Part shown: positions 1 to 3,075 of the stretch, in pieces | How the letters are laid out: each line of letters starts with the position of its first letter | Position numbering within the stretch: position 1 is the stretch's first letter | Virus record (IMG/VR): IMGVR_UViG_3300001525_000208 | Coordinates: 15,019 to 79,018 of that record | Reading direction: 5' to 3' (one strand) | DNA: 64,000 nucleotides | Source of the DNA: a virus | Taxonomy: Duplodnaviria > Heunggongvirae > Uroviricota > Caudoviricetes | Notes under the pieces: generated by a model | The model's input: the letters and a program-made list of their open reading frames with translations, nothing else | Databases searched by the model: none | Told to the model about the DNA's origin: nothing | Translations under genes and position numbers: made by a program

Positions 1-3000
1 ATTTCTAATAATAATATTAGAAATCAAAAACACTTCGGTGGTAAAGATAGATATGGAATTACAGGAACGTTTGAATCTGATATTGTTGAACAGTCTAAAT
101 CGAAGTCTTTAATATTATCTGCAAAAGAAGGAAATGTAGAATTAATTGAAACAATGTTAGTTATTAATAAATTATAGAATTTATTTAATAAAGCAGCTGT
201 TATTGGTTCTATAGAAGTAATAAATCCTTTTTATGGACATGATATGACTGCCTCTAATGAAGAATTATTGTATTCTTTTAATGCTTTGACTAAACATCAT
301 CCTTTAAAAGAAAATAATTTCAGTAATTTTAAAATTTAGATGGCAAGTAAATATTAGTTAGCTTATAATACTTTTAAAGATATTGTAACAACTGGTAAAA
401 GAAATCAATGGGCAGGAGAATTTGTCAAATTTAAAGATTTTGAAACATCGTTAAGTATGCATGATTTATCAATAGATACGTCTGTTGATGAAAAAGTTGA
501 ACAATTAGAAAAACTTCGGAATAAACTTGAAAAAACTTATGATTTACAAGGAATTCGTGAAGAACAATCACAATTAGAATCTGATCCAATTTCTTTATAT
601 AATAAAGTTCTTATTGCATTAGCTGATTTAAAAGGAATTAATTTTAGACAACAGGTTAAAGCTAATGATAAATGGTTAGATAGTTTTTTAATTCACAAAA
701 AAGGTGTAAGTACTTTATTATTCGATAACCCTGGAAATCTCGCAAGTGATACTCTTAATTTACTTACTAAATTAACAACGGAGGCATACTAGAATGTAAG
801 ATCTAGTATGCAAAAACCTAAAGCTGAAATTAGAAAACTTGTAGATGCTATAAAATCAGATCATTCTTATGGATATTTAAAAGAACACTCTGTTGGAAAT
901 GCTGCAAGTTTATATTCTAATATGATTAAAGAAACTCAAGATGGAAATCTTTTATTTAAAAATATAAATGATTCAACTTTATCTTAGAGTGAAAGAAATT
1001 TTATTAAGTATGCTTTAAAAATTATAAATAAAAATAGATTCCCTACTAAAAGTGAAGAAGAGTTAAATATAATGGAAGCTAATGGACAAATTGAATATTA
1101 TCAATTACCTTTAGCTAAAGGTGATATTTCATCTAAAGCTTCCACAGATGGATTATTAGAAGCTTTTAAAGATAAATTAAAAGAATTAAATCCTAGAGAA
1201 TCTATTAAAAGAGCAAAAGATAAATTAGAAGGAATTAATAGAATTGAAGATTAGTCTGCTGAAGAAATTGAAAAACGTAGATCTTCAGATTTATTCGAGA
1301 TGGGTGTAGGTTTTGATAGAGGTGAAGGTTCTGAGCGTATAGATTATATTAAAAAGAAAGGAAGAGGATATTTTGAATAGAACTTGGAGACTTTACTTTT
1401 AAAACACATTTTTCAATATTAGGTTAAAACTAATATGGATAAAGTGTTTCCTATGATGAAAGCAGCTATGGCACATTTGTCAATTCAAGGTGCTAACTTT
1501 AATGAAAAATTTACAGCTGACGCTAAATATTTAAAAGATTATATTGTAAACAAAATTAAAAATGAAAGTATAATCAATCCTAAATATGAGTATGCTGCTG
1601 ATATTGCAAATAAAGTAAAACAAGCTGCTTCTGTTGCAATGCTTGCATTTTCACCTGTACAGGGTTTATATCAATCTATTCAAGGTTTGTGGACTGATAT
1701 TAGACTAATTATACAAAAACCTGATATTATTAGTAAACATGGAAAATCTGCATTTACTTTAAAGAATATGTCAGATTCTTTTAAAACTGCATACAAAGAT
1801 TTATTTGTTTCAGGTAATAAAAATACTGTTAATTCTCTCATTAACGAACTCTACGGTTTAAATGATATGGATATGAATCAATATGTAGATCGTTTAAAAA
1901 CTGATAAATTTGGTATGTTTAACTTTAGTTAGTTCATGTTTAAGTTATCACAAAGACCTGACTATTATAATAGACTTACTATATTTGGTGCTTAGATGCG
2001 TGCAGATGGTACATGGGAAGCTCACAGTATTAAAGATGGGATACTTTAGTATGACATTAAAAAGGATAAAAGATTTTCAGCATTTATTAATAATAATGTT
2101 GGACATCCTGATTACAATAAATAGAAAGTATTGTTTTATACTATGGCAAAATAGTTTGAACTTGAACATGCAAAAAATGCTGACGGTTCAGATTATAAAT
2201 TAGATATAAGTAAACCTAATCTACCTAGAGCTTACACTAATCAACAAGCAGAATCTTACAAATCTTTATCTGATGATATTTATGGATATTATTCTCATGA
2301 AAAGAAATCTTTAATAAATTCTACTTTATTAGGATCAATTTTCATGCAGTTTAAAACATTCTGGACAGGTAAAAAGAATCAATATTTAGGTAAAGGAGGT
2401 GTAAAACTTAGAGGTGAATATCAACAATATGAAGAAAATGGAGAAAAATATTATTATCAAGTAGATAATAATGGAAATATTCTATTTAATGAAGTTCCTT
2501 TAAGTGAATCACAAATGAAAGAAAAAGGAATACCTTTAATAGCACCTTTTATGCAATGGAAAGGTTAGTGGCAAGAAGGCATTGTTCTTACTATGAGTAA
2601 TTTGTTTGCCAGTAATCCTAAACAATTAAGAAAAAATTGGATGGATATGTGGTACAATGAAGATCCTATGCTTCGTAATGCTTATAGAAGTAATATTAAA
2701 CAATTAGCATATGATGGTACCATTTGGATAATGGGTGGAGTACTTTTAGCAGGATTATTAGGAGATTGGCTTAAAGAATTAAAAGAAGACAATAAAGATT
2801 CTAATGATCTTTTTACTGCTTGTAAATTAGCGGCAGCTAATATATTTGTTGCTTCAGTAAAGAATTCATTTTTAGATTTTAATACTTCTGATTCTTTATT
2901 TTCACCTGTTACATCTTGGACTCCCGTATCTTTCGAATGGAGTTATAGAACAGCTAAAAATGTTTGGAATATTGGAATGGGTAATACCGATTTTTGGGAT

Positions 3001-3075
3001 GGCGTAGTTAAAAGTTCTTCTGCGCTTAAATCTATAAAGCCGGGACTTGATATTATCAAACCAAAAGAAAATTAA
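1..3075 (+). CDS. Large late protein, 5'-partial, readable only if in-frame TAG codons are translated. The frame-1 ORFs 457..792, 1072..1254, 1435..1932, 2344..2568 and 2593..3075 are all in one frame, separated only by TAG. There is a TM-like segment near the C-terminus.
   Basis: All ORF fragments share frame 1. The interrupting codons were checked by eye (e.g. 172-174, 340-342, 790-792, 985-987, 1252-1254, 1378-1380, 1930-1932, 1996-1998, 2047-2049) and every one is TAG; no TAA or TGA was seen in frame. The gene ends with TAA at 3073-3075. Confidence 0.65.

What the first reader, a model, noticed from the sequence alone, without database searches (positions are those of the whole stretch)
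1..3075. Protein of more than 1000 aa interrupted about 12 times by TAG only
All five track ORFs are in frame 1. Every junction checked by eye is TAG (172, 340, 790, 985, 1252, 1378, 1930, 1996, 2047, 2125, 2152, 2566, ...). The protein continues beyond the window start, and a hydrophobic segment lies near its C-terminus. Its size and position suggest a large virion, injected or tail protein.
Basis: seen in the sequence. Interest (0 to 1): 0.7.

Follow-up and report, generated by a model that had tools for sequence, protein, structure and literature searches.

The report
TAG-recoded crAss-like phage virion cargo gene
This is the last 1,024 codons of one large late gene of a crAss-like gut phage in which the stop codon TAG is read as glutamine by the phage's own suppressor tRNA; both the recoding and the protein family were already known.

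Summary
Frame +1 of 1-3072 has 14 in-frame TAG and no TAA or TGA until the TAA at 3073. It is one gene under purifying selection (dN/dS 0.11). Full-length relatives are about 1,570 aa, and two of them, from standard-code genomes, are uninterrupted.

TAG most likely encodes Gln. In an 88%-identical relative, 13 of 17 TAG sites are TAG/TAG or TAG<->CAA, and Gln is 5-fold enriched opposite TAG. A tRNA(CUA) with a tRNA-Gln-like acceptor stem and D arm lies at 62720-62794, at the head of the late strand. The minus-strand replication genes need no recoding, and a few end in TAG.

Its "virion/injected protein" guess rests on homology and gene order only. This is a new member of a known kind, of low to moderate interest.

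The parts
1..3075 (+). The 3' 1,024 codons plus the TAA stop of a gene of about 1,570 codons. It is the last gene of the + strand (late) block and is read with TAG = Gln.
   Evidence: stop pattern. (full-length homologues of 1,525-1,700 aa). (dN/dS 0.11 against the 88%-identical relative L008).
175..177 (+). In-frame TAG (codon 59).
   Evidence: CAA in L008.
337..339 (+). In-frame TAG (codon 113).
   Evidence: Variable column, mostly K.
355..357 (+). In-frame TAG (codon 119).
   Evidence: TAG in L008, L006 and L007; CAA in L004 and L005.
790..792 (+). In-frame TAG (codon 264), in the motif EAY-Q-NVR.
   Evidence: Q in 71 of 71 homologues. CAA in L004-L007, TAG in L001 and L008.
985..987 (+). 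In-frame TAG (codon 329).
   Evidence: Variable column.
1252..1254 (+). In-frame TAG (codon 418).
   Evidence: CAA in L008, L005 and L003.
1378..1380 (+). In-frame TAG (codon 460).
   Evidence: CAA in L008, TAG in L006 and L007.
1420..1422 (+). In-frame TAG (codon 474).
   Evidence: CAA in L008 and L005.
1930..1932 (+). In-frame TAG (codon 644).
   Evidence: TAG in L008.
1993..1995 (+). In-frame TAG (codon 665).
   Evidence: Q in 59 of 71 homologues. CAA in the standard-code homologue L002.
2047..2049 (+). In-frame TAG (codon 683).
   Evidence: TAT in L008; mostly V in other homologues.
2122..2124 (+). In-frame TAG (codon 708).
   Evidence: Q in 59 of 71 homologues. CAA in L001, L002 and L004.
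2152..2154 (+). In-frame TAG (codon 718).
   Evidence: Q in 69 of 71 homologues. CAA in L005-L008.
2566..2568 (+). In-frame TAG (codon 856), in the motif WKG-Q-WQEG.
   Evidence: Q in 51 of 71 homologues. CAA or CAG in L004, L006 and L007.
1522..2859 (+). Residues 508-953: C-terminal module homologous to the C-terminal module of the crAss gp65/gp49 family (phi14:2 GenBank gp076, crAss001 gp49, cr1_1 gp077).
   Evidence: hhalign on trimmed profiles: probability 93.1%, E 3.2e-7, 366 columns. Twelve controls scored no more than 1.4%.
2704..2760 (+). Most hydrophobic segment (LAYDGTIWIMGGVLLAGLL). It could be a membrane-inserting helix or a buried helix.
   Evidence: Kyte-Doolittle 1.56. It is part of a long confident helix in the AF2 model of homologue P0025, and it aligns with a hydrophobic helix of the gp49 family.
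3081..3120 (.). 18-bp GC-rich hairpin between the two convergent gene blocks, probably a terminator.
62720..62794 (+). Suppressor tRNA with anticodon CUA, which reads UAG. It lies at the head of the + strand late block.
   Evidence: ARAGORN. Rfam tRNA model, 50 bits. Acceptor stem and D arm resemble the phage tRNA-Gln(UUG).
55435..55507 (-). Phage tRNA-Gln(UUG), the closest match to the suppressor's acceptor stem and D arm.
63021..64000 (+). First recoded late ORF after the suppressor tRNA. It has 4 in-frame TAG and runs off the window end.

Best explanation
Positions 1-3075 are the 3' two-thirds of a single late gene of a crAss-like (Crassvirales, most likely Zeta-group) gut phage.

How the recoding works. 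The gene is written in genetic code 15. Its 14 UAG codons are decoded as glutamine by the phage-encoded tRNA(CUA) at 62720-62794, which sits at the start of the late strand. The roughly 59-kb minus-strand replication block (NrdD, DNA polymerase, helicases, ligase, primase, Thy1, metallophosphatase, a sigma-70-like factor) is readable in the standard code. So it can be expressed before the suppressor accumulates, whereas this gene can only be completed afterwards.

What the protein is. It is about 1,570 aa. The N-terminal PD-(D/E)XK nuclease domain lies outside the window. About 1,000 mostly alpha-helical residues follow. Their last roughly 450 residues form the conserved C-terminal module of the phi14:2 gp65 / crAss001 gp49 family. 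It is the last gene of the block of giant genes, directly after the virion RNA polymerase gene and a gene of about 330 codons.

Inferred steps. The protein is packed in the capsid and ejected with the RNA polymerase at the next infection. The suppressor is charged by the host GlnRS. The nuclease domain acts on host or phage DNA. The hydrophobic C-terminal helix helps passage through, or anchoring at, the membrane.

Shown: one gene, TAG as a sense codon, Gln as the best amino acid, the tRNA, the family relationship, the gene order, and the RNA polymerase fold of the neighbour in relatives.
For: Single gene:
- 14 TAG, 0 TAA, 0 TGA in 1,024 codons.
- 112 full-length homologues of 1,550-1,700 aa align across every junction.
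- Homologues L002 (0 TAG) and L005 (1 TAG) are continuous ORFs.
- dN/dS is 0.11, and amino-acid identity next to the TAGs equals the overall identity.

TAG = Gln:
- Against the 88%-identical L008, the 17 sites with TAG in either sequence are 6 TAG/TAG, 7 TAG<->CAA and 4 other.
- Gln is 5.0-fold enriched opposite TAG in a 9-sequence codon alignment.
- The near-standard-code L005 has CAA at 5 of the 14 sites.
- Codons 264 and 718 fall in columns with Q in 71/71 and 69/71 homologues.

tRNA and dual code:
- tRNA(CUA) is present. It has U1, G2-C71, G3-C70, A73 and a D arm like the phage tRNA-Gln.
- Minus-strand ORFs end in TAA 47, TGA 30 and TAG 8 times. Two of those TAGs are internal to the recoded ORF 60946-62199.

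Identity of the protein:
- PF12705 in the full-length relatives.
- The PD-(D/E)XK profile hits cr1_1 gp077 at 32.9 bits, against a best decoy of 7 bits.
- The C-terminal module matches the gp49 family: hhalign 93.1%, E 3.2e-7, 366 collinear columns, with 12 controls at 1.4% or less.
- The slot is the same as in phi14:2, cr1_1, cr4_1 and cr111_1: RNA polymerase, then this gene, then a convergent metallophosphatase/Thy1 block.
- The major capsid protein (MCP) of MT835470 hits only phrog_11589, which is also the PHROG of the crAss001 MCP.

Literature:
- Code 15 in the late genes of Beta, Delta and Zeta crAss-like phages, a PDDEXK domain in transcription-block giants, and a DxDxD motif disrupted in Zeta (PMC7886860).
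- gp65 and gp67 in virions (bioRxiv 10.1101/2020.03.07.982082).
- gp47, gp49 and gp50 as virion cargo (PMC10172136).
Against: - The RNA polymerase neighbour, the PD-(D/E)XK domain and the capsid gene were seen only in relatives' contigs, not in this window, which starts inside the gene.
- The link to gp49/gp65 is distant: no HMMER hit and 12% identity. It covers only residues 508-953. Residues 1-507 have no detectable relative outside the family.
- The suppressor's anticodon arm resembles tRNA-Met(CAU) more than tRNA-Gln, and its 1-72 pair is U-G rather than U-A. So Gln charging is inferred from codon substitutions, not proven.
- Database homologues were probably translated with TAG = Q, which inflates the Q counts. 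The DNA-level counts do not have this bias.
- Four of the 17 sites against L008 are not Gln.
- Zeta-group assignment rests on genome size, code variability and the broken DxDxD motif, not on a terminase large-subunit (TerL) phylogeny.
Confidence: 0.78

Rival explanations
1. The TAGs are real stops and the region is an array of 10-15 small separate genes, or a dead, fragmented pseudogene.
For: Under the standard code the region splits into ORFs of 16-170 aa. Six or so minus-strand ORFs in the same window appear to end in TAG.
Against: - No TAA or TGA in 1,024 codons (P about 5e-34).
- Homologues are continuous across every junction, including two from standard-code genomes.
- dN/dS is 0.11, with undiminished conservation next to the TAGs.
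- TAG sits in invariant Gln columns.
- A tRNA(CUA) is encoded in the window.
Confidence: 0.02
2. TAG is a sense codon but encodes something other than Gln. Candidates are pyrrolysine (ARAGORN's label), Tyr, Lys, Glu, or a mixture through near-cognate read-through.
For: ARAGORN labels the tRNA 'Pyl' from its anticodon. The anticodon arm resembles tRNA-Met, and pair 1-72 is U-G. Four of 17 sites against L008 are N, K, E or Y. K and E are 1.5-1.6-fold enriched opposite TAG.
Against: Gln is by far the most enriched residue (5-fold) and accounts for 7 of the 11 non-identical exchanges against the close relative. Several TAGs lie in columns that are Q in 51-71 of 71 homologues. The tRNA shares its acceptor stem and D arm with the phage tRNA-Gln and fits the general tRNA model at 50 bits. 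Metaproteomics showed Gln at TAG in crAss-like phages (PMC9523058; abstract seen).
Confidence: 0.05
3. The gene is recoded as described, but the protein is not packaged. It would act inside the cell late in infection as a nuclease-containing factor for recombination, DNA processing or host DNA degradation.
For: The only recognisable catalytic domain is a PD-(D/E)XK nuclease. The gene abuts the replication block. There are no structural hits for the rest. Packaging was never tested for this family.
Against: The C-terminal module is homologous to proteins detected in phi14:2 and crAss001 virions. The position directly after the virion RNA polymerase gene is conserved. The gene uses the late (recoded) code like the structural genes.
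Confidence: 0.15

Closest known systems
Code-15 (TAG->Gln) recoding of late genes in crAss-like and other gut phages, with phage suppressor tRNAs (Yutin 2021 PMC7886860; Borges 2021 bioRxiv 10.1101/2021.08.26.457843; Peters 2022 PMC9523058)
   Same: In-frame TAG is concentrated in the late (+) strand genes. The replication block is readable in the standard code. A tRNA(CUA) is encoded by the phage. TAG aligns with Gln. Close relatives differ in how many TAGs they carry, and some use the standard code.
   Different: Nothing essential. No theta/HDV-like ribozyme was found next to the suppressor tRNA. One minus-strand ORF next to the divergent region (60946-62199) also carries TAGs.
Cellulophaga phage phi14:2 gp65 (GenBank Phi14:2_gp076, 1,421 aa) and Bacteroides phage crAss001 gp49 (1,349 aa): virion-packaged proteins encoded next to the virion RNA polymerase
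   Same: Last gene of the giant-gene block, adjacent to the RNA polymerase gene, and followed by a convergent metallophosphatase/replication block. It shares the C-terminal module of about 400-450 residues, including a hydrophobic helix.
   Different: phi14:2 gp65 carries a zincin HExxH motif (HEIMH at 245). The window's family has no HExxH and carries an N-terminal PD-(D/E)XK domain instead. The similarity is only detectable profile-to-profile. The roughly 500 residues before the shared module have no detectable counterpart.
Suoliviridae (Delta group) cr1_1 gp077 (2,007 aa) and cr4_1 gp27 (1,803 aa)
   Same: PD-(D/E)XK domain followed by the gp49-like C-terminal module in one polypeptide, in the same genomic slot.
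   Different: The Suoliviridae proteins also have an N-terminal zincin HExxH region upstream of the nuclease domain and are 200-450 aa longer.
crAss001 gp47 (2,341 aa RNA-polymerase-associated cargo protein)
   Same: A giant protein of the same block that contains a PD-(D/E)XK/exonuclease domain at residues 1703-1862.
   Different: Only the nuclease domain matches (18.8 bits). The architecture differs, and gp47 is not the positional equivalent.
Ejection (internal virion) proteins of podophages: T7 gp14-16, P22 gp7/16/20, N4 ejection proteins with vRNAP
   Same: Works-like analogy only: large, largely helical proteins stored in the capsid and expelled ahead of or with the DNA, some with enzymatic domains and membrane-inserting helices (discussion in PMC10172136).
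   Different: No sequence or fold similarity was found.

Membership tests
Code-15 (TAG=Gln) recoded phage late genes | In-frame TAG, and only TAG, in otherwise intact conserved genes | tested here: met
   14 TAG, 0 TAA, 0 TGA in 1,024 codons. dN/dS is 0.11.
Code-15 (TAG=Gln) recoded phage late genes | TAG positions align with Gln codons in homologues | tested here: met
   7 TAG<->CAA and 6 TAG/TAG among 17 sites against L008. Gln is 5-fold enriched. CAA occurs at these sites in the standard-code homologues.
Code-15 (TAG=Gln) recoded phage late genes | Phage-encoded suppressor tRNA with anticodon CUA | tested here: met
   62720-62794 (+): ARAGORN and Rfam at 50 bits. The acceptor stem and D arm are Gln-like. 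Charging was not tested.
Code-15 (TAG=Gln) recoded phage late genes | Early/replication genes readable in the standard code, with TAG still usable as a stop | tested here: met
   About 85 minus-strand ORFs are intact in the standard code. Their stops are TAA 47, TGA 30, TAG 8, two of which are internal to a recoded ORF.
Code-15 (TAG=Gln) recoded phage late genes | Gln actually incorporated at UAG | not testable with these tools
   This needs proteomics. It has been shown for other crAss-like phages (PMC9523058).
Crassvirales (crAss-like phages), Zeta-like | Giant virion RNA polymerase with two-barrel fold and DxDxD motif | tested here: met
Crassvirales (crAss-like phages), Zeta-like | crAss-type major capsid protein | tested here: inconclusive
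   Tested only for the distant relative MT835470. Its 475-aa ORF hits phrog_11589 (E 5e-11), the PHROG of the crAss001 MCP (E 7e-118). The capsid gene of this phage is outside the window.
Crassvirales (crAss-like phages), Zeta-like | Replication block with DnaG primase, SNF2 and SF1 helicases, Thy1, metallophosphatase, RNR | tested here: met
   Pfam and PHROG hits in the window: primase, SNF2/DEAD helicase, Dda/SF1 helicase, Thy1, Metallophos, NrdD, ligase.
Crassvirales (crAss-like phages), Zeta-like | TerL/portal phylogeny inside the order; Zeta clade placement | not tested
   TerL is not in the window. Zeta placement is inferred from relatives' contigs of 145-183 kb, the RNA polymerase gene broken inside DxDxD, LAGLIDADG insertions and mixed codes, as described in PMC7886860.
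phi14:2 gp65 / crAss001 gp49 virion protein family | Sequence homology to family members | tested here: met
   hhalign: 93.1%, E 3.2e-7, 366 columns, window residues 508-953. Twelve controls scored 1.4% or less. HMMER alone finds nothing.
phi14:2 gp65 / crAss001 gp49 virion protein family | Gene adjacent to the virion RNA polymerase gene, at the end of the giant-gene block | tested here: met
   The window shows the end of the block plus the convergent DUF3310, metallophosphatase and Thy1 genes. Relatives show RNA polymerase, then a gene of about 330 aa, then this gene. The order is the same in phi14:2, cr1_1, cr4_1 and cr111_1.
phi14:2 gp65 / crAss001 gp49 virion protein family | Zincin-like HExxH protease motif (described for gp65) | tested here: not met
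   There is no HExxH in the window protein or in the full-length P0001. It is also absent from crAss001 gp49, so it does not define the whole family.
phi14:2 gp65 / crAss001 gp49 virion protein family | Physical presence in virions and ejection into the host | not testable with these tools
   Known for the homologues only (GenBank note; PMC10172136; bioRxiv 10.1101/2020.03.07.982082).
PD-(D/E)XK nuclease superfamily | PF12705 match with a conserved D...(D/E)xK core | tested here: met
   Found in full-length relatives only, at residues about 160-350, upstream of the window. PF12705 scores E 7.8e-8 to 7e-10, and the motif 'GxIDLLVxDxxGxxHIxDYKTS' is nearly invariant.
Pyrrolysine (Pyl) decoding of UAG | pylT-type tRNA plus pylS/pylBCD genes; TAG at Pyl-specific sites | tested here: not met
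   The tRNA fits the canonical tRNA model and resembles tRNA-Gln. TAG exchanges with CAA. No Pyl genes appeared among the annotated window ORFs, although a dedicated search was not run.

The most novel reading that the evidence does not exclude
The gp65/gp49 family may be a modular ejected effector. It would combine a conserved C-terminal delivery or anchoring module (window residues about 508-953, with a hydrophobic helix and the invariant motifs NDMDMN, RPDYYNR, DDIYGYYSHEKK and WQEG) with interchangeable N-terminal enzymatic domains: zincin protease in phi14:2, zincin plus PD-(D/E)XK in Suoliviridae, PD-(D/E)XK alone here. The about 1,000-residue helical part is predicted confidently (pTM 0.86) but matches no solved structure. 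It could therefore be a new fold with its own catalytic or RNA-polymerase-regulating activity.
Probability: 0.3. Interest if true: 0.5.

Novelty: new member of a known kind. Interest (0 to 1): 0.25.

Why it matters
For annotation, the region must be translated with table 15. Otherwise a 1,570-aa conserved virion protein is lost as about 15 fragments.

For biology, this adds a member of an already described system: late-gene TAG->Gln recoding in crAss-like phages. It also links the PD-(D/E)XK-bearing giant protein of Zeta-like phages to the gp65/gp49 proteins packaged with the crAss virion RNA polymerase. The function of that family is unknown. The domain swap (protease versus nuclease on a shared C-terminal module) gives a testable handle on what crassviruses inject with their polymerase.

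Tried and rejected
- Pfam and PHROGs on the 1,024-aa window protein gave nothing significant.
- The family profile against PDB sequences gave nothing.
- Nucleotide search in GenBank phages found only one unannotated 6.8-kb fragment. The phAss-1/Phassvirus group (PMC10607447) did not turn up among the protein hits.
- Showing that the neighbour is an RNA polymerase by sequence failed: phmmer, a 3-sequence HMM and a 37-sequence HMM against crAss001 gp50 and the PDB were not above shuffled decoys. Only the structure route worked.
- phmmer of crAss001 structural proteins against MT835470 ORFs gave no hits.
- The third homologue search, with crAss001 gp47, returned only sequences more than 90% identical and was useless for a profile.
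- Protein comparison failed internally.
- The first hhalign run gave 99.4%, but controls scored about 98% because of sparse C-terminal columns. That number is discarded. The trimmed rerun with controls is the one used.
- The DNA polymerase tblastn was uninformative for taxonomy.
- No HDV/theta ribozyme lies near the suppressor tRNA.
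Full report
OBSERVATION

Translating frame +1 of 1-3300 gives one long reading frame. It is broken only by TAG, at 175, 337, 355, 790, 985, 1252, 1378, 1420, 1930, 1993, 2047, 2122, 2152 and 2566. The first TAA is at 3073.

Eight are exact, four are 3 nt off, and two (355, 1420) were missed.

The pattern is not chance. The window is 28% G+C. The other five frames of the same 3 kb hold 46-156 TAA+TGA each. Base composition predicts about 52 TAA and 22 TGA per 1,024 codons, so P(none) is about 5e-34.

ONE GENE, NOT AN ARRAY

- A protein search with TAG read as Q returned 112 full-length relatives of 1,550-1,700 aa. They cover 96-100% of the window protein at 34-88% identity.
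- At the DNA level, eight relatives were extracted. L002 (MT835470) has 0 TAG and L005 has 1 TAG in ORFs of 1,529-1,614 codons. The others carry 14-48 TAG and no other in-frame stop.
- Against the 88%-identical relative L008, dN/dS over 1,023 codons is 0.11. Amino-acid identity within five residues of a TAG (0.886) equals the overall identity (0.88). This excludes a pseudogene.

WHICH AMINO ACID

- In the window/L008 pair, 17 codon positions have TAG in at least one sequence. Six are TAG/TAG, seven are TAG<->CAA, and the rest are AAT, AAA, GAA and TAT.
- In the nine-sequence codon alignment, Gln is the residue most enriched opposite TAG (15.9% against a 3.2% background, 5.0-fold). No other residue exceeds 1.7-fold.
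- The near-standard-code L005 has CAA at 5 of the window's 14 sites.
- In the 72-sequence alignment, codon 264 is Q in 71/71, codon 718 in 69/71, codons 665 and 708 in 59/71, and codon 856 in 51/71.
- Caveat: those database proteins were probably translated with table 15. The look-up reported 'translates_to_query: no' under table 11.
- Gln codon use in the gene is CAA 30, CAG 4, TAG 14.

THE DECODING MACHINERY

ARAGORN finds eight tRNAs. One, at 62720-62794 (+), has anticodon CUA. Rfam scores it 50 bits on the tRNA model.

ARAGORN's 'Pyl' label follows only from the anticodon. The acceptor stem (U1, G2-C71, G3-C70, discriminator A73) and the D arm closely match the phage's own tRNA-Gln(UUG) at 55435-55507. 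The anticodon arm looks more like the tRNA-Met(CAU), and pair 1-72 is U-G. Gln identity is therefore inferred mainly from the codon substitutions.

The tRNA sits at the head of the + strand block. It follows a small TAG-free ORF (62262-62687) and lies just before an ORF with four TAGs (63021-64000).

GENOME CONTEXT IN THE WINDOW

From 3126 to about 60.9 kb, nearly everything is on the minus strand and intact in the standard code. Pfam and PHROGs identify the following:
- NrdD, a DNA polymerase and exonucleases
- Dda/SF1 and SNF2/DEAD helicases
- ATP-dependent ligase and DnaG-type primase
- a sigma-70-like factor
- Thy1, a metallophosphatase and DUF3310

These ORFs end in TAA 47, TGA 30 and TAG 8 times; two of the TAG cases are internal to the recoded ORF 60946-62199. 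So TAG apparently still terminates some genes that are presumably early. This fits a standard-code host and a phage-driven switch.

The gene studied here is the last gene of the + block. An 18-bp hairpin (3081-3120) separates it from the convergent DUF3310 and metallophosphatase genes.

WHAT THE PROTEIN IS

- The window fragment has no Pfam or PHROG hit.
- Full-length relatives have PF12705 (PD-(D/E)XK) at residues about 160-350, upstream of the window. The motif GxIDLLVxDxxGxxHIxDYKTS is nearly invariant.
- An AlphaFold2 model of P0025 was built. P0025 is a 1,046-aa homologue, 50% identical, that covers the window part. The model is confident (pLDDT 84, pTM 0.86) and mostly helical.

GENE ORDER

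The order is the same in every relative's contig. A giant gene comes first. It is 2,997 aa in L010; in L008 and L002 it is split right after 'LQGSDY', and in L002 a LAGLIDADG ORF lies in the gap. A protein of 311-350 aa follows, then this gene, then the convergent replication block.

The giant carries 'LQGSDYDIDT', comparable to 'LSGSDFDVDK' of crAss001 gp50. Sequence profiles could not prove a relationship.

MT835470, which carries the standard-code homologue, has a 475-aa ORF whose only PHROG hit is phrog_11589 (E 5e-11). That is the PHROG of the crAss001 major capsid protein (E 7e-118).

LINK TO KNOWN CRASS PROTEINS

- tblastn with the L002 protein reached the Suoliviridae phages cr1_1 and cr55_1 through the nuclease domain.
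- The family profile hits cr1_1 gp077 (2,007 aa) at 32.9 bits against 7 bits for the best of 1,000 decoys. It hits crAss001 gp47 at 18.8 bits.
- cr1_1 gp077 is also the last gene of its giant block and is followed by a convergent exonuclease, metallophosphatase and primase.
- Its C-terminal 1,078 residues are clearly homologous to three proteins: crAss001 gp49 (E 5e-44); IAS virus gp057; and phi14:2 GenBank gp076 (1,421 aa, 'structural protein, MS/MS'). In phi14:2 that gene directly follows the 2,180-aa RNA polymerase and precedes a convergent metallophosphatase.
- phi14:2 gp076 carries HEIMH at residue 245, as do cr1_1 and cr4_1 at the aligned column. By numbering offset and this motif, it corresponds to the 'gp65' zincin-like protein of Drobysheva et al. 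That paper reports gp65 in virions together with the RNA polymerase.
- A profile of the window part (A1 trimmed to residues 1-1012) was compared with a nine-member gp49/gp65 alignment. It gives hhalign probability 93.1%, E 3.2e-7, 366 collinear columns, window residues 508-953 against template columns 853-1246 of 1,300. Twelve controls (reversed, column-shuffled, block-shuffled, unrelated family A4) scored 13-32 against 74, with probability 1.4% or less.
- An earlier untrimmed run (99.4%) was shown by controls to be inflated by an artefact and is disregarded.

MECHANISM

Shown:
- This is a single conserved late gene with 14 sense TAGs.
- The phage encodes a tRNA(CUA).
- The replication block is in the standard code.
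- The protein is related to gp65/gp49.
- A crAss virion RNA polymerase gene lies next door in relatives.

Inferred from established work:
- Host RNA polymerase transcribes the middle and late genes, possibly redirected by the phage sigma-like factor at 17710-18558. In phi14:2, middle and late genes are transcribed by the host enzyme.
- The suppressor is charged with Gln.
- The protein can only be completed after the suppressor accumulates, as proposed for recoded phages.
- The product is packed as capsid cargo and ejected with the RNA polymerase, as found for crAss001 gp47, gp49 and gp50.

What the nuclease domain and the invariant motifs of the helical part do is unknown.

TAXONOMY

Several features match the description of the Zeta group of crAss-like phages in PMC7886860:
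- relatives' contigs of 145-183 kb
- an RNA polymerase ORF broken inside DxDxD
- LAGLIDADG insertions
- neighbouring lineages that use TAG recoding or the standard code
- a rich nucleotide-metabolism and replication block

[quoted passage not shown] TerL was not available, so this placement is an inference.

NOVELTY AND VERDICT

The recoding, its restriction to late genes, the suppressor tRNA and the presence of a PDDEXK-bearing giant in the transcription block are all published.

What this analysis adds is modest. The Zeta-like PDDEXK giant is a distant member of the gp65/gp49 cargo family, and the N-terminal enzymatic domain differs between lineages. I rate it as a new member of a known kind, interest about 0.25.

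Noticed in passing
window 56990-57062 (-): A tRNA with an 8-nt anticodon loop (AUUUAUAA; ARAGORN reports the 4-base anticodon 'ttat'; Rfam tRNA 57 bits). It could be Ile(UAU), a UAA-reading tRNA, or a quadruplet reader.
   Followed up: no
window 58137-58228 (-): RAGATH-1 hammerhead ribozyme match above Rfam's gathering score (65.2 against 56.3 bits) inside the tRNA-rich part of the minus-strand block.
   Followed up: no
window 60946-62145 (-): A 399-aa ORF with 5 in-frame TAG on the otherwise standard-code minus strand. It is the first gene next to the divergent region that faces the suppressor tRNA. It has no Pfam family and a hydrophobic Gly/Ala-rich centre.
   Followed up: partly
L008 5622-6436; L002 3926-4987; alignments A4 and A5: In most relatives the virion RNA-polymerase-like gene is called as ending exactly at 'LQGSDY', inside the catalytic DxDxD motif. 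L002 has a LAGLIDADG homing-endonuclease ORF in the gap and L008 has an 0.8-kb gap. L010 is continuous. This looks like an intron inserted at the active site, as reported for Zeta-group phages.
   Followed up: partly
window 17710-18558 (-): A sigma-70-like factor with regions 1.2, 2, 3 and 4 (PHROG 351, E 3.5e-69) in a phage whose relatives also carry a virion RNA polymerase. This suggests redirection of host RNA polymerase for the later genes.
   Followed up: no
window 37442-38746 (-): Two minus-strand ORFs (37970-38746 and 37442-37969) are in the same frame and separated by a single TAG. Once the suppressor is active, read-through would fuse them into a 435-aa product.
   Followed up: no
window 5419-6369 (-): The Thy1 match starts only at profile position 59 of the 278-aa standard ORF. 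The upstream in-frame extension (6253-6369) contains 4 TAG, so the gene start or its coding mode is unclear.
   Followed up: no
window 63600-63950 (+): The first recoded late ORF contains tandem peptide repeats (AREAEQVL three times; PVKPAE twice) and is Ala/Glu/Arg-rich. It may be a scaffold-like or internal protein.
   Followed up: no
L017 (cr4_1 gp27), 1308-6719: The annotated Suoliviridae gp27 CDS shows 18 stops when translated with table 11. The equivalent gene is therefore recoded in that phage as well.
   Followed up: no
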